Shown one piece after another: positions 210-61,935 of a DNA stretch of 64,000 bases (the first letter of the stretch is position 1; each line of letters starts with the position of its first letter). Source of the DNA: a virus; IMG/VR virus record IMGVR_UViG_3300029957_000006, positions 60,455 to 124,454 of that record; one strand, given 5' to 3'. The notes beneath the pieces were generated by a model. It worked only from the letters and a program-made list of their open reading frames with translations. It had not been told where the DNA came from and did no database searches. Both the position numbers and the translations under genes were made by a program.

Positions 210-1871
210 TTATTGTTTTGCTGGTGCATACTCAATCAACAATGCTTGTTTAGTTGACATGATTTCAGCACTTGCTGGATAATTGTGATTTTCTGTTGTT
301 CCAAGACTCAAAGGCATACTTGCCATTTGAGATTTAATATTTGCTTTGATAATCAAGAAGTCATCATCTTGTCCTTCACCAAATGGTTTATAAATGTTGG
401 TACCATCGAAATAAGTAACCATTGCATCTTCACCTGATTCATGTTCAAAACAAATGGTTTTCTTAGCTCCCAATGCTTCTTTACTTCTGAGCAATTTGAA
501 AGGACCTGGTAATGTTCCTTTACCAATTGTTTCGCTGAATTTCACAACTGGACGATCTTCAGAACCAACAGATGATAAAGCATATTTTGCTGATAAGTTA
601 TCACGTTTCAAATTATTACGCAACCCACCACCTTGTCCGAATAATCCCCAAGTGTAGAATGCATATCCTTTTGCAATGAGTGCATCGATTTCTTCAAGAA
701 TATCTTCGCAAGATTTTCCATCACCGTCCAAGAAGTGAAATAATGTACCACATTTCCAAGAACCAGTCTTGGTTGTCATTTCTGTGAACAGACCATTTGC
801 AACTGAAAGATCGCAAATTTCAATGATTTGATCAAGTGTTGTATATCCTTCTTTTGAAGAATCAGGACGAGCAACAACTACTTTACCATTACCTTCTTTG
901 AGACTTCTCAAAGCTAGTGGCAATAACATATTTTTTACGGAGTTTTTAGCATCATAACAATCATCAACCATTGATACAATTTCATGGTTCTTACATGAGT
1001 TATAGATCGCTTCGTAACAATCATTTTCTTTTGTATATGATTGTACGTTTCTGTGAGCAAGAGCATTTACACTTGAGAAGATGCCAATTGCTTCACCAGA
1101 ATTTTTCCATGCTTGGTAAGCACCAGAAAACGTATCTGTACCACCAAAGGTGTATAAGTGAACCATTCCAAGTTCTTCTGATTCTTCAAGTGTCATACCA
1201 GCTCTGTCACCAAAGTCAGTAATCGTAATGCTGGCCCAGAAATTAAGCATTTCTTCTGACATATCTGGATCAACTTTAAGAATGCGTTCTTTGATACGCA
1301 ATAAGAAGTGTTCATCTTGTGTAACACGTTCAGTAGTACTCCAAGTTTGGAGAATTTTAGATTCAAACCAAGCACCCAACACACCAAGTCCATCAACATC
1401 AGAGATGATTTCAATAGCTGGTTCATTTGGATAAATGACGCTTCCTTCACGCACAGCACGAATTTTAATTGGGGGACGGCCACCGAATTCATCAACAACT
1501 CTGCGCCAGATTTCTTCTGGGAATTCATATTCTTTGAATCCTTCCATTGTAACCTTAGCATGAGCTAGGAAACGGATTGTTTCATCGATCTCAGCGTGTG
1601 TGATTGGTTCGTAGAATAATTTTTCAAGAATACGTTGGAGACCAATAAAGATGATACGATTGTCAGCTTTACTGTAAATATGAGGATTAATCGTATTGAG
1701 ATTTTTTCTGAATGTTACATAATAAACCGATTTTTCTTTAGCCTCTGGGCTTTCGAATTTATTAGAACCAATGGTATAAGCATCACCAAGCAATAGACGT
1801 GGTGTTTTATAAACTTTACGTTTTGGCAATACAACCGTTTTAACTTGTTCTGTTGTTGAGACTTCGTTCAT
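210..1871 (-). CDS. nadV: Nicotinamide phosphoribosyltransferase (NAMPT/NadV)
   Basis: 553 aa; DAY, TDFGDRA, GTDT, ARPDS, DGDG, GGGLR..KRD motifs of NAMPT. Confidence 0.85.
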   Translation of the reverse strand: MNEVSTTEQVKTVVLPKRKVYKTPRLLLGDAYTIGSNKFESPEAKEKSVYYVTFRKNLNTINPHIYSKADNRIIFIGLQRILEKLFYEPITHAEIDETIRFLAHAKVTMEGFKEYEFPEEIWRRVVDEFGGRPPIKIRAVREGSVIYPNEPAIEIISDVDGLGVLGAWFESKILQTWSTTERVTQDEHFLLRIKERILKVDPDMSEEMLNFWASITITDFGDRAGMTLEESEELGMVHLYTFGGTDTFSGAYQAWKNSGEAIGIFSSVNALAHRNVQSYTKENDCYEAIYNSCKNHEIVSMVDDCYDAKNSVKNMLLPLALRSLKEGNGKVVVARPDSSKEGYTTLDQIIEICDLSVANGLFTEMTTKTGSWKCGTLFHFLDGDGKSCEDILEEIDALIAKGYAFYTWGLFGQGGGLRNNLKRDNLSAKYALSSVGSEDRPVVKFSETIGKGTLPGPFKLLRSKEALGAKKTICFEHESGEDAMVTYFDGTNIYKPFGEGQDDDFLIIKANIKSQMASMPLSLGTTENHNYPASAEIMSTKQALLIEYAPAKQ

Positions 1872-20492: not shown

Positions 20493-21197
20493 ATTTGTCT
20501 TCCTAATGCTGATGGGTTAGGAACATACTCATCAGCGTTTTCATTATTCATTTCCCAATAAAAAATCTCCCAGTATCCAGACAAAGAGTAACCCATGTCA
20601 CGATACATTTGTCGCATAACTTCTGAGTTCTTAGTATAACCCATTGCATTAAACAATATCCAAATATCGTTTAAATTAAGTTTGCCACCAATTAAATCCC
20701 TAACAGTTGGATTAGCTTTCCAACGATAAGTACCATGTTCGTCTTCAATTATTTCGTGTTTATGATGCTTTTCTTTTTTAAGCATTTCACGATAATCTTT
20801 GCTGGCTTTACCAACTTCTGTTCTAGTTAATGTTTTCATTTTTGTGTTTTAAGATTACATCATCTGATATCTTGTAAGCAAGTATTGCCAATTGATTGTA
20901 ATAAGTCATAGTTAAATCAATGATCTTATCAATATCACTCTTGGTGCAATAAATGCGTACTGGAATCATTCGTTCAGCATGAAGTTCACCTATTGGTGAA
21001 ATCCATTGTCCCTTTGCTGGAGTAAGTATTGTCAAGCCATTGGCTAATGCTCTTACCTTAGCATCCCATACTCTGTGATATCGGGTTCTATAAGGCTTAC
21101 CTTCATTAGATATGGTTGGGACAAGAATTTCCCAGAGACTCTTTGGTTCCATAGAACAAAGGTACTAAAAAAAATCTGAATAAACAAATTGGATTTG

Positions 21198-21270
21198 AGC
21201 TCCCACCCAAATTCGAATTGGGGCTTCTACCTTACCAAGGTAGTGTACTAACCGACTATACTACAGGAGC
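21198..21270 (-). tRNA. tRNA-Thr(GGT)
   Basis: Cloverleaf; anticodon arm ctacc-ttGGTaa-ggtag. Confidence 0.85.
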
Positions 21271-21743
21271 ATTTTTAAAAGACTTGTTGGATCAGCCAAG
21301 TTAACTGGTTGGGATTCACCTAATGACCATAAGGCCCAATCACCTTCATATTTATTATAGAGTTCCAAGTGAAGCATACTAGTTGATGGGACCTTGCCTT
21401 TGTCTTTTAAAAGAACTGGGACCACCTTACCTAATAAATATCCTTCATTTACTATATCACCAACCTTCAGTGTTTCGTTGGCAATAACTTCACCATAGTT
21501 GATCGTTCCAGACCTACTTTTGATTGCAATTGCTTGTGTATTATTCCACCAAGGCATTTGAACCTTTTCACCAGTAAACCATTCAATTGCTACAACTTCA
21601 CCATCTTCTATTGCGAAAACTTCATCACCTTCATTGCAATAAAGATCAACACCAGTATGTATATCGTGTTTACGAGTAACACCAAAGGCACCTAATTCAT
21701 TCCCAATTGGAATTTCGTATTTATAGTTCTTAAGCGGAAACAT
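21261..21743 (-). CDS. M23 family peptidase
   Basis: HTGVDL and LHLE motifs. Confidence 0.75.
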   Translation of the reverse strand: MFPLKNYKYEIPIGNELGAFGVTRKHDIHTGVDLYCNEGDEVFAIEDGEVVAIEWFTGEKVQMPWWNNTQAIAIKSRSGTINYGEVIANETLKVGDIVNEGYLLGKVVPVLLKDKGKVPSTSMLHLELYNKYEGDWALWSLGESQPVNLADPTSLLKMLL

Positions 21744-22779
21744 TGTAACCTTTTACTGATTCAAGCAAATCTCTTTCTTCTTTCAATTTGATCTTTTTAT
21801 TCTCATGCTTACGATACCATTTAGGATAATTATTTCCAGTCCAAGGATGACCATTAGCAACTTGATAAAGCATCTTTTCATTCTCAGCATCCATTTGATA
21901 AAGAACACCATCATGTTCTCTTCTATGTGTGATAAATGATTTAGTTATCTTCACAACCAATTCATATGATAAGGTACAGATATATGATTTGTCAGTATAA
22001 CCATATCTCCAGTATCTTCTTTCTTTAGATGTATCCTCGTAGAAGAACTTCTTAGCTGTTGCTGAAAGATTATCATAAGTCATCTTATTGATCTTCTTCA
22101 ATTTTGGCTTAATGATTTCCCAACGCTTGGTTTTACGATTCTTGTATTTGAAGTCTGGGTTCTTGGACCAGATTCTATCGTTACAAGTATTTAAAGCCTC
22201 TTTATACGCAGCTGAATCATCACGTCTTAAGATATCATCACGAAGGGTCCATTCAGCATTATAGCCATGATGAATAGGTTCTTCCAATTCAACCCAACCT
22301 TGATTGCGGATAGAATCACGGATTTGATCGGCATTCATTTTAAGACGAATGATCTCTTTTTCCTTGAAGAAGAATTTATTGCGTTTTTTTCTACTCATTT
22401 AAATAAATATACTACAATATGTTTAAAAATCAATATTTAATTTTACTTAAATCTATCCAACCGATAACCTTAAAATCTGGTTCTTTAACTTGTGGTTTAA
22501 ATGTTATTTGTTGTTTTTTTAATTTTTCTCGATCCTTCTCTTTTATTTCTTTTCCATTTCGCCCTAAATGGTATTTATGACAAACCTTACATCGATATGG
22601 AACAACTTTATTGATTCTATGATCTAAACTGTTTAAGGCTTTTGCTGCTTCAATAGCTTCATCTTGAGTATTAAAAACCTTTTTTGGTTTCCATACCTTA
22701 CGTCCATCAGGCTCTATTCTAACTAATGTGTTACAATCCATATCGCAAAGGTAATGAAAAAAATTATTAATTCAAACAA

Positions 22780-23175
22780 TTACATGTTAAATTTCATTAT
22801 AGATACATATCCATCATCCTCAATAACTAGTTCTTGTCTTAGTTTTAATCTTTCCCAAAGAGCTTTACTAAACTTATTCATTGATATGTTGGAACAAGAA
22901 ATAGCTTTAGTATGCTTGTTTTCAATTAGAAAAGAAAGAGCTTCAATAAGAAAATCTTCACCAAGATTTTTACCAATGAAATCTTTTGTTAGACCATAAC
23001 CCATGATTGATGAAATCCCATCTGAATCGTTTGGATTTGAATAAAAGAATCCTATTTTTTCACCAGTAATTCTATTTGAGAATTCTAGGATATAAACATC
23101 AAACCAATCACCCATTTTTAAGAATGATAATGATGATCTACATTCTCCAATAGAAATGTCAAACAAATTATTCAT
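22780..23175 (-). CDS. GNAT-like protein
   Basis: FIGKNLG acetyl-CoA-like loop, N..SKALWERL. Confidence 0.45.
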   Translation of the reverse strand: MNNLFDISIGECRSSLSFLKMGDWFDVYILEFSNRITGEKIGFFYSNPNDSDGISSIMGYGLTKDFIGKNLGEDFLIEALSFLIENKHTKAISCSNISMNKFSKALWERLKLRQELVIEDDGYVSIMKFNM

Positions 23176-23176
23176 G

Positions 23177-23300
23177 AGCTGCTCACAGGATTCGAACCTG
23201 TACTACTTCACCTAACGCCAGTTGCAGCTGACTCGGTTCTCTTTCCGCTGGGATTTGCGGTGTTCTAGCCAATCGCACTAACCAACTGTGCTACCTCCCC
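23177..23300 (-). ncRNA. tRNA-like RNA with expanded centre and non-pairing acceptor ends
   Basis: D-arm GCACAGTTGGTTAGTGC and T-arm ACAGGTTCGAATCCTGT separated by about 70 nt. Confidence 0.5.
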
Positions 23301-23422
23301 AATTTAGTTGTGAGATTAATCCAGAATCACTGGTCACAACCACCATTTCCGCTGTAATGCACCCCAAGGTCTTATTCCAAAGACAAACACAAGTGTTCGG
23401 GCCAATACGGTTGAATTTCCAG

Positions 23423-23495
23423 TGGTAACGGCTAGAATCGAACTAGCGACACATAGATTTTCAGTCTATTGCTCTACCAACTGAGCTACATCACC
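23423..23495 (-). tRNA. tRNA-Phe(GAA)
   Basis: Cloverleaf; ataga-ctGAAaa-tctat. Confidence 0.9.
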
Positions 23496-23496
23496 A

Positions 23497-24400
23497 TTTG
23501 CTGACCATTTACATCAGCCCCAGAAGTCTCTGTTTTTTTAGTTTATTGCTACTAATGGGATGGCTACCTCCACCATAAACTATTCCAAGATGTATCTTAG
23601 AACGTATCACCGCTGAAACAATACGAGGGCCATGGACAGCCCGAATACACTAGGTTTACTATACTCTCTCATCTTTTTTCTACTCTTGAGAGTTCCATTC
23701 CGCTAAGACTGGATTTGTTTCATATCACTCCGTAAAAGCTACGTGAATACTACTATTATTATAAACCTTGTTTTTTTTGATTGCAGATGCTCCGAACATC
23801 TTTACGTCTCATTGCTGAGTTAACGTTTGTTTTACAATCGTAGTTGGCTAATCGGTGTATTTCCCCGAAAATTTAAAGAGTGTGAAAACTTACAATCACT
23901 CTGCCAATTTTAAAACAGATTCATGGTGGCTTATGAGCAGTCGCATTGCTTTTCGTGGAGTATTTGAAGTCTTGCCTCATAACTTTGTTCCACAGTAGTT
24001 ATACACCATGTCTCCCCTTACGTTATCCTTTCGTGCTATCACGCACAGCCAACTTAACGGCAAGTTCCCTTATCAGTTTGTTTTATTTCAGATTCATGTT
24101 CATATTGATGTGGACTAAACATCCAAGAACAGATTGTGGCCTCCGTACAACGTATTTTTTAGGGCCGAGAGTCTACCTCGTTTGACCAACCCCTTAGCTT
24201 CCGCTAATATTTTACGCCACTGGGAACGCATGATATTCGTGCTTATTGCTAAGCTTTACCTACCTCAGTACTCAGAATATGAATTAACATATCCCTGTCT
24301 GATAATCATGCTGTCGCTATTCGAATTACCGAGAGATCGCTACCTTAGGACCGTTATAGTTTCTAATTGCAGAAATGAATCTTTATTATTTTTAATTGCT
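23497..24400 (-). ncRNA. Putative large structured ncRNA (about 900 nt)
   Basis: No credible ORF, raised GC, several GNRA-type hairpins, lies between tRNAs. Confidence 0.55.
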
Positions 24401-24418
24401 AAAATGTCAATGAACTAG

Positions 24419-24488
24419 TGGGGGATGATGGGTTCTAACCACCGACCTGTATTACTACTGCTCTAACCAAATTCTGAGCTAATCCCCC
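24419..24488 (-). ncRNA. Anticodon-less tRNA-like RNA
   Basis: 7-bp acceptor, D and T arms present; anticodon arm reduced to GTA-GTAA-TAC. Confidence 0.6.
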
Positions 24489-24806
24489 ATATTTACTTTG
24501 CAAAGTTACTAACTAAATTACGCTTTGTCAAGTATTATTTTTTAATATTTTTGAGGAACCAAATGCTCCTCTAACAGAGCACAAAGGTACAAAAGATTTT
24601 TGAATCTACCAAATTTATTTTTAATCCAAATAGATTTCAAAATAACTGATACAAAAATCATTAAACCAAACACCTCTATCGTAATAAAAAGCTAGAAGTT
24701 CTGGATCGGTGGCTTCTTCCACTCGTTTCACCATCTTATTGGCGATCTTTTGAAGGATTTTCTTTTTCATGAAACAAAGGTACTAAATAATTTTCGAATA
24801 AACAAA

Positions 24807-27128
24807 TTAATATCGTATAAGCTTCTTGATCCTATTAACTTGTTCAAAAAGCTTATGATTGGTAAAATAACTCGGTATATCCTTGATAGGTATATAACCC
24901 TCACGTGATTCACCGTGTTGTTTATCTGTGAATTTAATAAAAACCTTACCATCTAATTGAAATTTCTTTCTATCAATTTCAATTATCGCTATTTCGTTTT
25001 CAATTCTACTACTGGTTGGGTCTTGACCCAATCGTTTTAATGTATCATTTAATAAAAGAATTATTTGACTCTTTAATTTAACCAACTTAGTTTCTTCTTC
25101 TGAATCACCATCATTCGTTTCATCACTTGAATCATCATCTGAAGATAATTCTTCGAGTGCATTATCTACCTCTTTTTCAATTGAATTATAAATGGAGTCA
25201 TTATCGATTTCCATGTTATTATTCCCAGTTTCACTTATTTCTTCCCACACACTTTCATAATTTGTTGGAACATCATAACCTTCAAGTATTTCATCTGCTA
25301 GTGAAATAAGGTTATCAATAAATAATTGCTTATCAGTACTAAAGATATTTTCTTTAGTTAATGCCATGATAAATGGACCTATTCTTAGATTTAAATCAGT
25401 ATCATCATTATCCAAATACATGATCGCTTTTATGCTATTACGAATTTTATCCCAAGCTTTTTCCTCTCCTTCATCTTTAGCTTCAGAATATTTAGAATCT
25501 ATTTCACCTTTAATTTCATCAACTTTTTTATAACTTTCCAATAAATCCTTAAGACTTTCTTTATCCCATCCTAAACCATATGCTTTAAATTGATCCGCAA
25601 ATTCATTATGATTAGTTATAAATGTTTCAAGATAATATTCATAATCTTCATCTAATCTATCACTATCACCATCATAATAACTATAATTATATCCATTGCT
25701 ATTCCAAGTATCATAATCTAATTTTTCCAATAATTCATATACTGATGAATCCATATGTTTTTTCAAATAACTACCATAACTTGATGTATCAAAAGTTATA
25801 TAACCATTATAAAATGTCACATCAACATCTTCTGGTATCATTGATTTTATTTTCTCATACGCTTCTTCATTACCATTATTAGCTAGTTTCAATAAATTTC
25901 CTATTGATTTATGTTCTTCTGTGAATTTATTTGGTAAGTGTTTTTGCAAAAATTCAAGCTTGTCTTCACCAAAGGTATGAACAAAGGCATTTATTTCTTT
26001 TTGATCTAGACTCTCTAAATATGATCTAATATCTTCATCAGATAAAATTATCAATTCAGTAAAATTCATCTTAAGTTGTCTTCTCTCTCTACCATCTCTT
26101 TTAAGATACTCTTCCAATTTCTTTTTACTGATTTGCGTATAGCGTTTTAAGATATCTTTTTTAGGTTTAATAAATTCAAATTGTTTATCATCCAATCCAA
26201 TACCAAAAGAAACATATAAGTTTAATAAATCATCTGGTAAATTAGTCAATTGACGAAAAGTAATTGGTCTTGCAATTGTAGGATAGATATCTAAGTAGCT
26301 TCGTTTATCTTCATAACTAAGCTTCGCAAATTCTTGATCACTAATACCATTTTTAAATCTTTCATTCTTTTCTCTTTCTTCTGGTGTAAATGGTTTAGGT
26401 ACCAACACATCTCTAATAACTTTAAGCTTAGGGTTTATTCCTAGAATCTCATTCCAGCTTAATTGCTTATCACCATCATTATTTGCCGATGTAACAAAAT
26501 ATTGTTGTGTTTCTAAATCATCCATCTTTGCATTCTTTGGAACTTGAATAACGAAAAAGTGATATGGATATTTGAATTGACCTTTAAATACATTCTTAGT
26601 CATATTCCAAACACCAAATTCTTTCTCAGCAAGCTTTAAATTCTTGACAAAATAAAACGCTGGTTCATATGGCTTGAATCTGTATGTATAAAACATATTG
26701 GATGAATCTGATCTAGCTACACACCAAGAATAAGGAAATTTACCCTTATATTTTATACAAGCTCTTGGTGTATCAGCATAATACACTTCAAAATTTTCAT
26801 CTTTATAAACTGGCTTGGCATCAATTTCTATTTGTTCATTTCCACTACCAAAGGTTGATACACCTTGTCTACGTCCACCAACATAATCAACTAATTGTTC
26901 TAGATCATGAAAATCTGTGTAAGAATCGATATTGTTTCTTTTATCTGGAGCAACAGAAATATCTAAATCTGTATCAAACATTTCTTTGAACTTCTTATCT
27001 CTGATATGCTTAAACTTGTCAACGTAATTTTTAACCACTTCTGGATCGATACCTTGTTTTATAAACTTGGCACTTTGTGATTTAAAATCCTCATTAAGTA
27101 TTTCTTGAAATATGTGGCTAATCTTCAT
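24807..27128 (-). CDS. Large hypothetical protein, possibly virion-associated (start re-set to MKISHIFQEILNE)
   Basis: Long ORF; GATATTTATA motif just upstream of 27128. Confidence 0.6.
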   Translation of the reverse strand: MKISHIFQEILNEDFKSQSAKFIKQGIDPEVVKNYVDKFKHIRDKKFKEMFDTDLDISVAPDKRNNIDSYTDFHDLEQLVDYVGGRRQGVSTFGSGNEQIEIDAKPVYKDENFEVYYADTPRACIKYKGKFPYSWCVARSDSSNMFYTYRFKPYEPAFYFVKNLKLAEKEFGVWNMTKNVFKGQFKYPYHFFVIQVPKNAKMDDLETQQYFVTSANNDGDKQLSWNEILGINPKLKVIRDVLVPKPFTPEEREKNERFKNGISDQEFAKLSYEDKRSYLDIYPTIARPITFRQLTNLPDDLLNLYVSFGIGLDDKQFEFIKPKKDILKRYTQISKKKLEEYLKRDGRERRQLKMNFTELIILSDEDIRSYLESLDQKEINAFVHTFGEDKLEFLQKHLPNKFTEEHKSIGNLLKLANNGNEEAYEKIKSMIPEDVDVTFYNGYITFDTSSYGSYLKKHMDSSVYELLEKLDYDTWNSNGYNYSYYDGDSDRLDEDYEYYLETFITNHNEFADQFKAYGLGWDKESLKDLLESYKKVDEIKGEIDSKYSEAKDEGEEKAWDKIRNSIKAIMYLDNDDTDLNLRIGPFIMALTKENIFSTDKQLFIDNLISLADEILEGYDVPTNYESVWEEISETGNNNMEIDNDSIYNSIEKEVDNALEELSSDDDSSDETNDGDSEEETKLVKLKSQIILLLNDTLKRLGQDPTSSRIENEIAIIEIDRKKFQLDGKVFIKFTDKQHGESREGYIPIKDIPSYFTNHKLFEQVNRIKKLIRY

Positions 27129-27858
27129 TTTAAATGGTATTTCACTATAAATATCACTTAAAAGGTTAAAATTACCAAGATTTTGAACCCAATTTCCGAT
27201 AAATTCTATTATTAAAATCATTTAATAATGATTCTGGTATGATTATACCGTTTTTTGAAAATTCTTCAAGAATTTCTCTTTTACTGAATGAACCTTCAAC
27301 AATTCCATCACTCCATTCATTTACCCAAAGACCCCAAGATTTTTTACCAATTATAACACTTCTAACTATGTTAGGGTGTCTGGTTTTAATAACGATATTG
27401 TCTTTGTAATTTCCATTGTCGTATTTTCTGAATACGTTTTTACCTTCAATTTCATTCACATCAAATTGAATTGGATTTATATCACTACCACAAAAAGTAA
27501 GAATACCTTTTCGATGTGATTGTATAAAGAAGATGAAGATTTGATTAAATCCTTGTGAGTATTTTTGAAGCTTTCTTTCATGCTTCGATCCTATTTGTAG
27601 CTTACGTAATTCTATACGTTGCTGCTTGGTGCGTCCAAGCTGTTGCCCCCTTGACTTATCATTTTAATAGAGTTAATTCTTTTCGTAATTCACTTATCTT
27701 TCTTTGTGTTCCAGCAACATCAATTTCCTTAGTAGTGGAAGTCTTTTTAGTTAGAGCTGAAATCATTTCATTTTCTAAATATTGGATTCTTTCTTGAAGC
27801 TTGGCTTTCTTTTTTTCTAACTTTCCCATTACTAGGTATTTTAATCATGTGTTATTTG

Positions 27859-27970
27859 CAGTGGTGCTAGGAATCGAACCTAGAATTCTGGCGTGAGAGG
27901 CTAGTTTAATTGCTGAACGTAATCTTAACAGATTAGCTTTTACATTGTGATACCATTTCACTACACCACT
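27859..27970 (-). tRNA. tRNA-Glu(CTC)-like with insertion of about 40 nt
   Basis: Acceptor AGTGGTG/CACCACT; D and T arms intact; insert lies between D and anticodon arms. Confidence 0.55.
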
Positions 27971-27973
27971 AGT

Positions 27974-28045
27974 TGAGAGAGCGAGTTTCGAACTCGACTT
28001 TTCCACCCGTCTAGGTGGCGTACTAACCAATTATACTATCTCCCA
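27974..28045 (-). tRNA. tRNA-like, anticodon ambiguous (6-nt loop TAGACG)
   Basis: Cloverleaf with CCACC/GGTGG stem. Confidence 0.45.
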
Positions 28046-30186: not shown

Positions 30187-30216
30187 TTAAATCCAATATG
30201 TCAAATAACGTTGTTG

Positions 30217-30289
30217 TGGACCTTCCCAGTTTCGAACTGGGCTCTCATGTTCTTCAGACATGCGCTTTCACCAGATTAGCTTAAAGTCC
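30217..30289 (-). tRNA. tRNA-Phe(GAA)
   Basis: catgt-ctGAAga-acatg. Confidence 0.85.
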
Positions 30290-35351: not shown

Positions 35352-35479
35352 AGCAAAAGGTAGGGATCGAACCTACATTACAGTCAACCAGACATCCTGA
35401 TGAGAACCATCAGGTAGAGGATTGATGACTATTCCTCCGTTTAAAAAGCTAGCGTGTATACCACTTTCACCACCTCTGC
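35352..35479 (-). ncRNA. tRNA-like RNA with large structured central insertion
   Basis: Acceptor GCAGAGG/CTTTTGC, Leu-type D-arm, T-arm GTAGGTTCGATCCCTAC; centre contains cctgatg/catcagg hairpin. Confidence 0.55.
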
Positions 35480-35503
35480 ACTACTCAATATTTTAAAGAA
35501 CTG

Positions 35504-35578
35504 TGGGAATGACAGGGTTCGAACCTGTGACCCTCTGCTTGTAAGGCAGATGCTCTGAACCAGCTGAGCTACACTCCC
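35504..35578 (-). tRNA. tRNA-Val(TAC)
   Basis: tctgc-ctTACaa-gcaga. Confidence 0.92.
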
Positions 35579-61743: not shown

Positions 61744-61935
61744 TTTATTTTTAGTTAAATATCCCTACTCTTATTACCATTTTCGGGTTACTGGTATTAT
61801 TTTAATACAAAGGTATGATTATTATTTGAAATTACCAAATTTAATTATAGTTTTACTTAAAACAAAAAGAGTCTCCATTACAAAGACTCAATCTGTTATC
61901 AGCAAAGGGACTGAATGTGGTTAAGGTCTGTTAAA

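What the first reader, a model, noticed from the sequence alone, without database searches (positions are those of the whole stretch)
24337..24361. Perfect 25-nt copy of 23S rRNA helix 69/70 sequence in a phage ncRNA
Seen: minus strand AACTATAACGGTCCTAAGGTAGCGA near the 5' end of the putative large RNA. Known: this is the highly conserved 23S rRNA H69 loop-H70 segment, also 25 of 26 nt of the I-CeuI site; the flanks are not rRNA. The match lacks the 5' strand of H69. Inference: an rRNA mimic or decoy for H69-binding factors or ribotoxins, a strand-invading ribosome-binding RNA, or a captured rRNA fragment.
Basis: partly seen in the sequence, partly recalled or inferred. Interest (0 to 1): 0.8.

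Follow-up and report, generated by a model that had tools for sequence, protein, structure and literature searches.

The report
Phage RNA copying a ribosome junction
A large phage carries a gene for a folded, non-coding RNA whose core looks like a rearranged miniature of the central junction of the bacterial large ribosomal RNA, so the virus may be making a stand-in for part of the ribosome.

Summary
The 25-mer is real (window 24361..24337, minus strand; 1 match, 0 expected) and identical to true 23S rRNA. It is not a chimera: an independent DNA run spans both junctions, and six homologous loci exist in other viral and metagenome contigs.

It lies in a conserved, roughly 300-nt structured RNA (24384..24086) that matches no Rfam family. 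On 7 sequences, 96% of cells pair and 13 pairs show compensatory changes.

Relatives keep only GGUYCUAAGGUAG(Y)G plus AAUAAY. The H69-loop part varies, so a decoy centred on the H69 loop is not supported.

The "missing" H69 5' strand is present about 210 nt downstream. GGCC pairs with GGUC in 7 of 7 sequences, with the G.U kept and 2 compensatory changes. The arm before it matches helix 68: a covariance model that excludes the 25-mer hits exactly H68/H69-5' as top match in three 23S genes.

Upstream lies a box also found in 16S-23S spacers of the Flavobacteriales MAG's class.

My reading: a circularly permuted replica of the 23S domain IV junction, made from an rrn-like unit and acting as a mimic. 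Its ligand is unknown. The similarity beyond the motif is weak by sequence alone.

Earlier notes of this scan concern this genome only.

The parts
24582..24590 (-). GTACCTTTG promoter-type motif (TAnnTTTG form) upstream of the unit
   Evidence: 12 copies in the window, all on the minus strand, 0.24 expected. Reading it as a Bacteroidota -7 box is recalled knowledge.
24419..24488 (-). tRNA-like element with a truncated anticodon arm, upstream of the RNA
   Evidence: Read. Not called by ARAGORN or by Rfam tRNA at E<=10. Not conserved in L004.
24404..24415 (-). boxA-like element GTTCATTGACAT, of the type found in 16S-23S spacers
   Evidence: Within 27-39 nt of the core in 4 of the 6 loci with 320 nt of upstream sequence, and at -185 in a fifth. 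GTTCTTTGAC with up to 2 mismatches lies 51-117 nt before the 23S gene in 4 of 7 rrn loci of the class of a Flavobacteriales MAG; L183 shares AGTTCATTGACAT exactly.
24375..24382 (-). P1 5' strand AGAUUCAU (closes the core)
   Evidence: Pairs with 24097..24090; 98% of cells paired in 7 sequences, with G-U and compensatory changes.
24359..24374 (-). P2 small variable hairpin
   Evidence: UUUCU/AGAAA here, UUACAG/CUGUAA in L010, GUUUC/GAAAC in L015; read by eye.
24337..24361 (-). The 25-mer identical to 23S 1912-1936
24349..24352 (-). GGUC, equivalent to the H69 3' strand; pairs with GGCC at 24141..24138
   Evidence: GC 7, GC 7, UG 7, CG 5 + UA 2 in 7 sequences.
24337..24348 (-). Junction strand CUAAGGUAGCGA (23S 1925-1936)
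   Evidence: CUAAGGUAG is invariant in the family apart from one G>A in L014.
24321..24332 (-). Hairpin UCGGUAAUUCGA at the place of H71
   Evidence: Same sequence in 5 of 7; GAAA-loop hairpins in L011 and L015. Its likeness to H71 (GUCGGGUAAGUUCCGAC) is by eye.
24305..24311 (-). Helix X 5' strand (at the place of H67)
   Evidence: 7 bp with 24234..24228; 5 of 7 pairs show compensatory changes.
24235..24304 (-). Insertion domain capping helix X (two nested helices, GCAA hairpin, conserved GGUAGGUAAAG and CACGAAY)
   Evidence: Covariation. No consistent rRNA match with model R2. Mostly absent in L015.
24228..24234 (-). Helix X 3' strand
24142..24225 (-). H68-like arm: 3 bp, 5' bulge of 2, 2 bp, 3' bulge of 2, 6 bp, then a family-specific distal part holding the most conserved block (AACGAGG.UAGACUCUCGGCCCUAAAAA)
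24138..24141 (-). GGCC, equivalent to the H69 5' strand
   Evidence: In L004 the stretch reads ACGGAGGCCGTAACT, 14 of 15 identical to 23S 1901-1915.
24098..24137 (-). P-last hairpin (loop UUGUCU in most relatives)
   Evidence: Read by eye; not counted formally.
24090..24097 (-). P1 3' strand AUGAAUCU
23496..24089 (-). 3' extension up to tRNA-Phe; its first part (about 24076..23925) is shared with L010 and L012 only
   Evidence: No rRNA likeness. A relative's RNA-library contig lies on 23908-24003.
23422..23495 (-). tRNA-Phe(GAA) ending the unit

Best explanation
The 25-mer is the best-preserved piece of a phage-encoded structured RNA (core about 300 nt, 24384..24086, minus strand). The central four-way junction of this RNA is a circularly permuted replica of the 23S rRNA domain IV junction. 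Read 5' to 3' the RNA contains: the 3' half of the H69 loop, the H69 3' strand, the junction strand CUAAGGUAGCGA, a hairpin where H71 sits, a helix where H67 sits (capped by a phage-specific domain), an H68-like arm, and the H69 5' strand. The two H69 strands pair, and the H69 apex is replaced by the helix that joins the RNA's own ends (P1) and two small hairpins. The gene lies in an untranslated unit laid out like an rrn spacer (tRNA-like element, boxA-like box, RNA, tRNA). It is therefore probably transcribed with rRNA-type antitermination and cut out by tRNA-processing enzymes (inferred). I think it works as a molecular mimic: a free copy of the surface that domain IV shows at the subunit interface, which competes for something that normally docks there (inferred). 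My preferred ligand is the small subunit's platform and h44-h45 face, that is, the contacts of bridges B2b, B2c and B3 (recalled). A protein that reads this junction in naked or immature 23S (a modifying enzyme, an assembly factor or an rRNA-directed nuclease) is nearly as likely. My odds: conserved structured RNA with the motif as a functional part 0.95; permuted replica of the rRNA junction 0.7; acts as a mimic or decoy 0.45; the 30S subunit is the ligand 0.2.
For: Shown. (1) Six homologues exist (L004/L009, L010, L011, L012, L014, L015), all in tRNA-rich viral or metagenome contigs. (2) Structure: 96.1% of 308 cells pair, against 31-45% when partners are slid; 13 of 44 pairs have changes on both sides; 0 of 500 shuffles reach this. 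(3) The motif GGUYCUAAGGUAG is conserved in 7 of 7; the family profile hits 23S only there (E 1e-5). (4) GGUC pairs with GGCC in 7 of 7, with the G.U of H69 kept; C>U is matched by G>A in L010 and L015. (5) L004 carries 14 of 15 nt of 23S 1901-1915. This is the single best 15-mer match among all windows of the 23S and abuts the first match. L015 keeps the rRNA's G-C pair at the base of H68. (6) Model R1 was built only from the arm plus the GGCC tail, without the 25-mer. With filters off, its top hit in each of three 23S-bearing loci (22.6 kb, both strands) falls on H67-3'/H68/H69-5', over the full model length, at E 0.027, 0.032 and 0.11; the skipped distal parts are 46 and 49 nt long. A control model R2 from the neighbouring domain gives no consistent rRNA hit. 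(7) The bulge and helix pattern of the arm's base equals that of H68 in the Rfam structure line. (8) A boxA-like box lies upstream, as in spacers of the Flavobacteriales MAG's class. (9) Contigs of close relatives occur in two RNA libraries of different studies, one spanning the motif. (10) Precedent from passages of bioRxiv 10.1101/2024.12.08.627333: phage RNAs GOLLD and ROOL lie near tRNA islands, GOLLD pulled down ribosomes, and OLE has a pocket like the one RpsU occupies in the ribosome.
Against: Beyond the motif the likeness to rRNA is weak by sequence alone. nhmmer finds nothing else at E<=100. Smith-Waterman scores of the rest of the core do not exceed shuffles: 6 to 199 of 200 shuffles reach the observed score, 15 of 200 for L004. 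R1's scores (13.9-16.2 bits) are marginal: 94.5 kb of unrelated bacterial DNA gave one 14.5-bit hit. The argument therefore rests on the place of the hits, and the three 23S genes are one observation, not three. The arm-only model R3 puts its best hit elsewhere (L184 834-903, 15.6 bits). Its H68 hits score only 9.3-13.1 bits (E 0.86-7.9) in 5 of 9 loci. Rfam's LSU model does not match the core even in a 299-nt search. The H71-like loop is kept in only 5 of 7. The most conserved block of the family has no rRNA counterpart. RNAalifold prefers a local hairpin for the motif. Only 7 sequences are known, so the H69-like stem rests on one covarying column whose pattern is shared by three other columns. 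No binding, expression in a host or 3D structure was tested. Function, ligand and antitermination are inferred.
Confidence: 0.45

Rival explanations
1. Relic, not mimic. An ancestor phage captured and rearranged a piece of a host rrn operon (boxA plus part of domain IV). The rRNA-derived helices survive only as a stable scaffold of a phage RNA whose job has nothing to do with ribosomes, for example a self-assembling or protein-binding RNA like other large phage RNAs near tRNA islands.
For: The most conserved block of the family (AACGAGG.UAGACUCUCGGCCCUAAAAA) and the insertion domain have no rRNA counterpart. The context equals that of GOLLD and ROOL, whose functions are unknown (passages). Different members keep different rRNA-like letters, as expected from drift away from an rRNA ancestor.
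Against: The junction strand and both H69 strands are the least variable rRNA-like parts. This points to selection on exactly the rRNA-like surface rather than on any stable helix. The G.U in the H69-like stem is kept in 7 of 7 although G-C or A-U would be more stable.
Confidence: 0.25
2. Chance or convergence. The RNA is an independent structured RNA. A 13-nt junction strand happens to equal a universally conserved rRNA strand, the window's 25/25 is a lucky extension in an A-rich linker, and the H68 and H69-5' likeness is over-reading.
For: Unbiased sequence tests find only the motif. CM scores are marginal. In relatives the loop part is simply A-rich.
Against: The profile-to-23S E-value for the motif is 1e-5. 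R1's top hits abut the motif's rRNA position in the predicted permuted order: by my arithmetic, about 20 of 27,408 start positions in L002 would count as 'on site'. L004's second match is the best 15-mer of the whole 23S and is contiguous with the first. An rrn-type box lies upstream.
Confidence: 0.15
3. One reading: a decoy or strand-invading RNA centred on the H69 loop, for H69-binding factors (RRF, release factors, RluD, RlmH) or ribotoxins.
For: In this window the whole loop from A1912 on is intact. Family-wide, AAUAAY before the stem and R-Y-A-A after GGCC resemble the two sides of the H69 loop.
Against: The loop is interrupted by P-last, P1 and P2 in every member, and its sequence differs from rRNA in 6 of 6 relatives. 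There is no closed H69 hairpin to be read.
Confidence: 0.07
4. A DNA-level site: a target of an I-CeuI-like homing endonuclease, a remnant of a mobile intron's exon flank, or an attachment core for integration into a 23S gene.
For: 25 of 26 bp of the I-CeuI site.
Against: The letters are embedded in an RNA with compensatory base changes. Relatives differ at several site positions. There is no group I or II intron match at E<=10. There is no LAGLIDADG_1 domain in the 124-kb record, which is only about 35% of the genome. No 23S 3' part is present to restore a disrupted gene.
Confidence: 0.03
5. Assembly chimera or contamination with rRNA.
For: None beyond the identity itself.
Against: A 440-nt contig of another sample's DNA run covers 23960-24399 without a difference (record 7). 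17 runs hold all sampled words and 2 more hold 63-72%. Six homologous loci come from other data sets.
Confidence: 0.01

Closest known systems
23S rRNA domain IV junction (helices 67-71) of bacteria
   Same: Identical 25 nt (1912-1936). The same H69 stem pairs, including G.U. The same bulge and helix pattern at the base of H68. The same cyclic order of four helices around the junction. An rrn-type box lies upstream.
   Different: About 300 nt instead of 2.9 kb. The order is circularly permuted, with the ends in place of the H69 apex. H67 is capped by a phage-specific domain. The distal part of H68 is unrelated. Rfam's LSU model does not match.
GOLLD and ROOL: large ornate RNAs of phages and prophages near tRNA islands (Rfam families; names recalled, context from passages of bioRxiv 10.1101/2024.12.08.627333)
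   Same: A phage-encoded, several-hundred-nt, highly structured RNA among tRNA genes with unknown function. GOLLD is reported to pull down ribosomes.
   Different: No Rfam family other than tRNA (plus chance-level snoRNA and miRNA hits) matches this RNA or its 5 searched relatives at E<=10. No rRNA-like junction is described for GOLLD or ROOL in the passages I read.
rRNA mimicry by ribosomal-protein mRNA leaders, and the OLE RNA pocket for RpsU (recalled; OLE passages)
   Same: An RNA reproduces a local rRNA structure so that a ribosome ligand binds it.
   Different: Those are cis-acting leaders or a bacterial RNA that copy a single protein site. This is a trans-acting phage RNA copying a four-helix junction to which no ribosomal protein is known to bind (recalled).
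Stable RNAs of unknown function in the phage T4 tRNA cluster (species 1 and 2; recalled, not checked here)
   Same: Non-tRNA stable RNAs encoded inside a phage tRNA gene cluster and presumably released by tRNA processing.
   Different: They are much smaller and no rRNA likeness is known to me.
I-CeuI recognition site in 23S genes
   Same: 25 of 26 bp.
   Different: Here it lies in an RNA gene of a phage, with no intron or endonuclease found, and the site is not conserved in relatives.

Membership tests
Bacterial LSU rRNA (Rfam LSU_rRNA_bacteria) | Match to the covariance model at or above its gathering score | tested here: not met
   No hit in the window, in 21000-28000 at E<=10, in the 299-nt core alone or in the 124-kb record. 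The same model scores 2213 bits on L002.
23S domain IV junction (as a fold, not as a gene) | H69 stem pairs G-C, G.U, C-G, C-G formed by two strands | tested here: met
   Columns 37-40 with 266-269 pair in 7 of 7 sequences, with 2 compensatory cells.
23S domain IV junction (as a fold, not as a gene) | H68 directly 5' of the H69 5' strand, with the rRNA's bulge pattern | tested here: inconclusive
   R1's top hits fall on H68 in 3 of 3 23S loci, E 0.027-0.11. The arm-only model R3 hits H68 in 5 of 9 loci at only 9.3-13.1 bits, and its best hit is elsewhere. A background hit of 14.5 bits was seen.
23S domain IV junction (as a fold, not as a gene) | Three-dimensional equivalence to H67-H71 | not testable with these tools
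   No RNA 3D prediction or structure comparison was available.
GOLLD / ROOL / other described large bacterial and phage RNAs in Rfam 15 | Match to the family's covariance model | tested here: not met
   at E<=10 there are only tRNA hits and chance-level hits in the window region and in 5 homologous loci.
Group I / group II introns | Intron covariance model match next to the exon-like 25-mer | tested here: not met
   No such match at E<=10.
I-CeuI-type homing site | 26-bp recognition sequence | tested here: met
   25 of 26 bp against the primer-borne site in PMC2790883 (passages).
I-CeuI-type homing site | A LAGLIDADG endonuclease or intron associated with the site | tested here: not met
   No PF00961 match in the record, which is about 35% complete. 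Other LAGLIDADG families were not searched.
rrn boxA antitermination element | Conserved box between spacer tRNA and 23S, in the sense strand | tested here: met
   GTTCTTTGAC with up to 2 mismatches lies upstream of 23S in 4 of 7 loci of the Flavobacteriales MAG's class and upstream of the phage RNA in 5 of 6 loci. The background is 91 such matches per 128,000 positions of the window.
rrn boxA antitermination element | Binding of NusB-NusE and termination-resistant transcription | not testable with these tools
   The name boxA and its function are recalled. A literature search by motif gave only unrelated primer matches.

The most novel reading that the evidence does not exclude
A virus encodes a miniature, circularly permuted copy of the interface junction of the large ribosomal RNA. 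It expresses this copy like an rRNA (boxA unit) and uses it to dock on host small subunits, or on factors that handle immature 23S. In this way it would steer subunit joining or ribosome biogenesis during infection. This would be the first rRNA-domain mimic RNA known from any virus.
Probability: 0.22. Interest if true: 0.92.

Novelty: new variant of a known kind. Interest (0 to 1): 0.8.

Why it matters
Phages are known to bring tRNAs, ribosomal proteins and translation factors, and to make large RNAs of unknown function next to tRNA genes. No virus is known to make a copy of part of an rRNA.

If this RNA really reproduces the domain IV junction, it gives a concrete, testable idea for at least one class of these enigmatic phage RNAs: binding to 30S, tRNA or rRNA-directed enzymes.

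It would also be a natural example of a circularly permuted rRNA domain that folds on its own.

The boxA-like boxes suggest that a phage probably infecting Bacteroidota borrows rRNA-type antitermination for its untranslated operons.

It could further provide a compact natural probe for ligands of the ribosome's central bridges.

Tried and rejected
Searches that gave nothing useful.
- BLAST of 23400-24800 against 50,697 phage records: only tRNA-Phe-like matches in 42 records, nothing on the RNA.
- Exact-pattern scan of genome contigs for a conserved 18-mer: 0 hits.
- A degenerate 15-base pattern gave 40 viral and at least 120 genome stretches. nhmmer over all 172 loci then held confirmed only the known members; the two weak hits (L036, L048) are coding sequence.
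- Two further viral scans gave 3 new loci, none homologous, and no new carrier of the 3' module.
- L013, from the metagenome scan, is a chance hit.

Readings I dropped or could not support.
- I first read TTGACA-N16-TAATAA as a sigma-70 promoter. I dropped this because the box equals the rrn spacer box, and because the consensus promoter scan was no better than shuffles (6 found, 5.0 expected).
- The 8-mer GCACGAAU shared with 23S 1964-1971 lies inside helix X's domain, and about one such 8-mer is expected by chance. I do not count it.
- A weak match to the S4-Flavobacteria leader (16.1 bits, E 4.2) conflicts with the covariation-supported pairs. I treat it as chance.
- The 3' extension has no rRNA likeness (best score 21 against a shuffle mean of 22.9).

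Neighbouring proteins.
- No Pfam or PHROG family for the 804-aa neighbour or for the other neighbours tested.
- The Atlas gave only unnamed viral clusters at 0.86 or less.
- Four loci with the 804-aa homologue (L003, L005, L006, L008) lack the RNA.

Literature.
- 'rRNA mimic' + phage; 'helix 69' + bacteriophage + noncoding RNA; 23S + mimic + phage-encoded + structured RNA; rRNA-like + bacteriophage genome + 23S (listings and abstracts only). None describes such an RNA.
- bioRxiv 10.64898/2026.10.15.759028 (passages) concerns RluA and MS2 and is not related.
- Supplements were closed and not needed.

Read layout.
- RNA-library contigs did not cover 24387-24800 or most of the 3' extension. Since these are contigs of relatives, this says nothing about transcript ends.
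- No complex prediction was run, because no protein partner is claimed.
Full report
OBSERVATION

The minus strand of the window reads AACTATAACGGTCCTAAGGTAGCGA at 24361..24337. It is the only match in the window even with 3 mismatches allowed, and none of 100 shuffles gave a match. It occurs once in the 124-kb virus record that holds the window; this is an IMG/VR record classed as linear and estimated about 35% complete.

The only other viral contig with the exact 25-mer (L002) carries a true 23S rRNA gene (2213 bits to LSU_rRNA_bacteria). 23S genes of a Flavobacteriales MAG (L176) and a Terrimonas MAG (L177) have the same letters.

By E. coli numbering this is 1912-1936. The numbering is recalled, checked against the three uridines of the H69 loop and the Rfam structure line. 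The stretch covers the H69 loop from A1912, the H69 3' strand, and the junction strand CUAAGGUAGCGA.

The 26-bp I-CeuI site given in PMC2790883 (passages) is this 25-mer preceded by T. The window has A there, so '25 of 26' is right.

NOT AN ARTEFACT

The stretch 23900-24500 is held by 19 DNA runs of rhizosphere metagenomes. 17 hold all sampled words, though these may include the source and may be one campaign. In one run not flagged as the source (X18), a 440-nt contig covers 23960-24399 without a difference, spanning both junctions of the 25-mer (record 7).

More important, the region has homologues in other data sets.

A CONSERVED STRUCTURED RNA

The region 23496-24620 has no credible ORF on the coding (minus) strand. 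It lies among 22 tRNA genes. No Rfam family matches it at E<=10.

Homologues were found in two ways. One came through a neighbouring 804-aa protein (L004). The others came through exact scans with conserved blocks (L010, L011, L012, L014, L015). L013 from the same scan is a chance hit. Further scans of viral and bacterial collections found no more. All homologous loci that could be searched are tRNA-rich and also lack any Rfam match for the RNA.

The shared core is 232-307 nt long. On the 7-sequence alignment A2, with the structure I propose:
- 96.1% of 308 cells form standard pairs, against 31-45% when the partners are slid by 1-3 columns.
- 13 of 44 pairs show changes on both sides.
- 0 of 500 shuffles reach the observed values.

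The core is closed by P1 (AGAUUCAU/AUGAAUCU). The window, L010 and L012 share an additional 3' module.

WHAT IS CONSERVED OF THE 25-MER

In the six relatives the stretch reads AAUAAY-GGUYCUAAGGUAG-YG. The 13-mer GGUYCUAAGGUAG is kept in 7 of 7, with one G>A in L014. The H69-loop part is replaced by A-rich sequence.

The family profile hits 23S only here (E 1e-5 on two 23S sequences).

So the window holds the most rRNA-like copy of a motif that is a conserved part of the RNA. The part that is conserved is the H69 3' strand plus the junction strand, not the H69 loop.

THE OTHER STRAND OF H69 AND AN H68-LIKE ARM

Column 40 of A2 (C in 5 sequences, U in L010 and L015) covaries perfectly with column 266 (G in 5, A in the same 2). 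Three other columns share this pattern, so the covariation alone does not single out column 266.

GGUC (columns 37-40) pairs with GGCC (columns 266-269) in 7 of 7 sequences as G-C, G-C, U.G and C-G/U-A. These are the pairs of the H69 stem in the Rfam consensus, wobble included.

The letters before GGCC read ACGGA, against ACGGC in rRNA. Opposite them lies UCCCAGUG, against GCCCGGUG in rRNA. The U-A pair replaces the rRNA's G-C, and L015 has G-C.

The base of this arm has the pattern 3 bp, 5' bulge of 2, 2 bp, 3' bulge of 2, 6 bp. I read the same pattern for H68 from the structure line.

In L004 the stretch is ACGGAGGCCGTAACT, 14 of 15 identical to 23S 1901-1915. Its 5' proximal motif matches 1916-1936 (20 of 21). 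L004 thus carries both halves of H69, split in the loop. That 15-mer is the single best-matching window of the whole 23S for L004; in the other members the adjacent windows rank in the top 0.5-18%.

Ungapped, anchored identities to three 23S genes are 8-15 of 23 for the strand at the H67/H68 base, and 11-16 of 21 for the H68-end/H69-5' strand. The anchoring favours matches.

AN OBJECTIVE TEST AND ITS LIMITS

I built covariance model R1 only from A2 columns 170-278: helix X 3' strand, the arm, and GGCC plus tail. The 25-mer is not in it. With filters off, I searched 22.6 kb (both strands) of three loci holding 23S genes.

The top hit in each locus is the stretch H67-3'/H68/H69-5'. Each hit covers the full model length, at 16.2, 15.9 and 13.9 bits (E 0.027, 0.032, 0.11). 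The skipped distal part is 46 nt in the model and 49 nt in rRNA. In L002 the hit is 675..580, overlapping the start of the 25-mer site at 585..561.

Model R2, of equal size and built from the adjacent helix X and insertion domain, gave no hit shared among the rRNAs (best E 2.7).

The limits are these:
- The scores are marginal. 94.5 kb of unrelated bacterial DNA gave one hit of 14.5 bits.
- The three rRNAs are homologous, so this is one observation. Its weight comes from the place: by my arithmetic, roughly 20 of 27,408 possible start positions in L002 would count as 'on site'.
- A stricter model of the arm alone (R3) put its best hit elsewhere (L184 834-903, 15.6 bits). It found H68 in 5 of 9 23S loci at only 9.3-13.1 bits; these 5 are among 13 hits listed at E<=10.
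- Unbiased Smith-Waterman comparison with shuffles finds nothing significant beyond the motif.
- Rfam's LSU model does not match.

ANATOMY

Going round the central junction the order is:
- H69-like stem.
- The strand CUAAGGUAGCGA.
- A hairpin at the place of H71. It reads UCGGUAAUUCGA in 5 of 7; there are GAAA-loop hairpins in L011 and L015.
- A 9-nt linker.
- Helix X (7 bp, with 5 pairs showing compensatory changes), capped by a 70-nt phage-specific domain.
- One or two linker bases.
- The H68-like arm.
- Back to the H69-like stem.

This is the cyclic order H69, H70/71, H67, H68 of domain IV, with helix X where H67 sits. The H69 apex is replaced by P-last, P1 (the RNA's ends) and P2. The RNA is therefore a circular permutation of the rRNA junction opened in the H69 loop.

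rrn-LIKE SETTING

I tested this.

GTTCTTTGAC with up to 2 mismatches lies 51-117 nt upstream of the 23S gene in 4 of 7 rrn loci sampled from the class of a MAG titled Flavobacteriales. One of them (L183) has AGTTCATTGACAT exactly.

The same box lies 27-39 nt before the RNA core in 4 of the 6 loci with 320 nt of upstream sequence, and at -185 in a fifth. It is absent in L010, and L012 is cut. The background is 91 matches per 128,000 positions.

Upstream at 24590..24582 is GTACCTTTG. This motif has 12 copies in the window, all on the minus strand, with 0.24 expected. It has the TAnnTTTG form of Bacteroidota promoters (recalled).

The unit thus reads: promoter motif, tRNA-like element, box, RNA, tRNA-Phe. 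A Bacteroidota host, rRNA-type antitermination and release by tRNA-processing enzymes are inferences.

EXPRESSION HINTS

Contigs of close relatives stand in two RNA libraries of different studies:
- 202 nt on 24134-24333 (11 differences, 2 gaps) and a contig on 23908-24003 in a soil library.
- 157 nt on 24229-24373 (3 differences, 1 insertion), spanning the motif, in a sediment library.

The tool warns that DNA can be present in RNA libraries and that contigs show neither ends nor expression level.

HOW IT MOST LIKELY WORKS

Shown: a conserved fold in which the rRNA-identical letters form one strand of an H69-like stem and the adjoining junction strand.

Inferred: the fold reproduces the surface that domain IV offers at the subunit interface. 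From memory of the 70S structures, residues 1836-1837, 1919-1920, 1922 and 1932 (bridge B2b) and the H69 stem contacts of P-site tRNA fall in the conserved letters.

I therefore favour a mimic that competes for a ligand of that surface. The free 30S platform and h44-h45 face is my first guess (about 0.2). A protein acting on naked or immature 23S is a close second.

The family's most conserved block is not rRNA-like, so the RNA also does something of its own. A relic reading remains serious (0.25), and so does plain coincidence (0.15).

COMPARISON AND NOVELTY

The RNA is not a member of the LSU rRNA family, of GOLLD or ROOL, or of intron families (tested, not met). It shares its context with the large phage RNAs near tRNA islands (passages). 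It shares the principle of rRNA mimicry with ribosomal-protein leaders (recalled).

My literature searches (listings and abstracts) found no description of a phage RNA that resembles an rRNA domain. The library lacks most subscription journals.

I rate it a new variant of known kinds, with a bolder reading still open.

Noticed in passing
window, minus strand: 2225, 5743, 9890, 10930, 15687, 21157, 24582, 24775, 30903, 36772, 41950, 43286 (start of each 9-mer): GTACCTTTG occurs 12 times, always on the minus strand (0.24 expected). It is probably the phage's main promoter element, of the TAnnTTTG type recalled for Bacteroidota, which would name the host phylum.
   Followed up: partly
window minus strand 48485, 30209, 35501 (first base of each 12-mer): Further boxA-like boxes occur: GTTCTTTGACAT, GTTATTTGACAT and GTTCTTTAAAAT. 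Two of them lie directly beside tRNA genes (30216-30289, 35503-35578). The phage may use rRNA-type antitermination throughout its tRNA operons.
   Followed up: partly
window 24419-24488 (-): A tRNA-like element has acceptor, D and T arms but a shortened anticodon arm. It is missed by ARAGORN and Rfam and is not conserved in L004.
   Followed up: no
window 23916-23924 (-) versus 24089-24097 (-): AUGAAUCUG, which contains the 3' strand of P1, occurs a second time at the end of the 3' module. P1's 5' strand could therefore pair with either copy, giving a short or a long form of the RNA. This is unexplained.
   Followed up: no
window 24807-27221 (-); L004, L010, L014: An 804-aa protein without any Pfam, PHROG or Atlas family precedes the RNA in 4 of 6 RNA loci. 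It also occurs without the RNA in L003, L005, L006 and L008.
   Followed up: partly
L002 (IMG/VR contig, 13.7 kb) 1-2486 and beyond: This viral contig carries 2.5 kb of an enterobacterial-type 23S gene joined to sequence that looks protein-coding and lacks an rrn spacer. It is either an assembly chimera or packaged host DNA.
   Followed up: no
window 24275-24307 (-): There is a weak match to the S4-Flavobacteria ribosomal-protein leader (16.1 bits, E 4.2) in the insertion domain. It conflicts with the covariation-supported pairs, so it is probably chance.
   Followed up: partly
window 27859-27970 (-) and 35352-35479 (-): Two tRNA matches carry long insertions (112 and 128 nt overall).
   Followed up: no
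window 61762-61796 (-): A DUF805b RNA motif just reaches its gathering score (35.9 against 35.6 bits).
   Followed up: no
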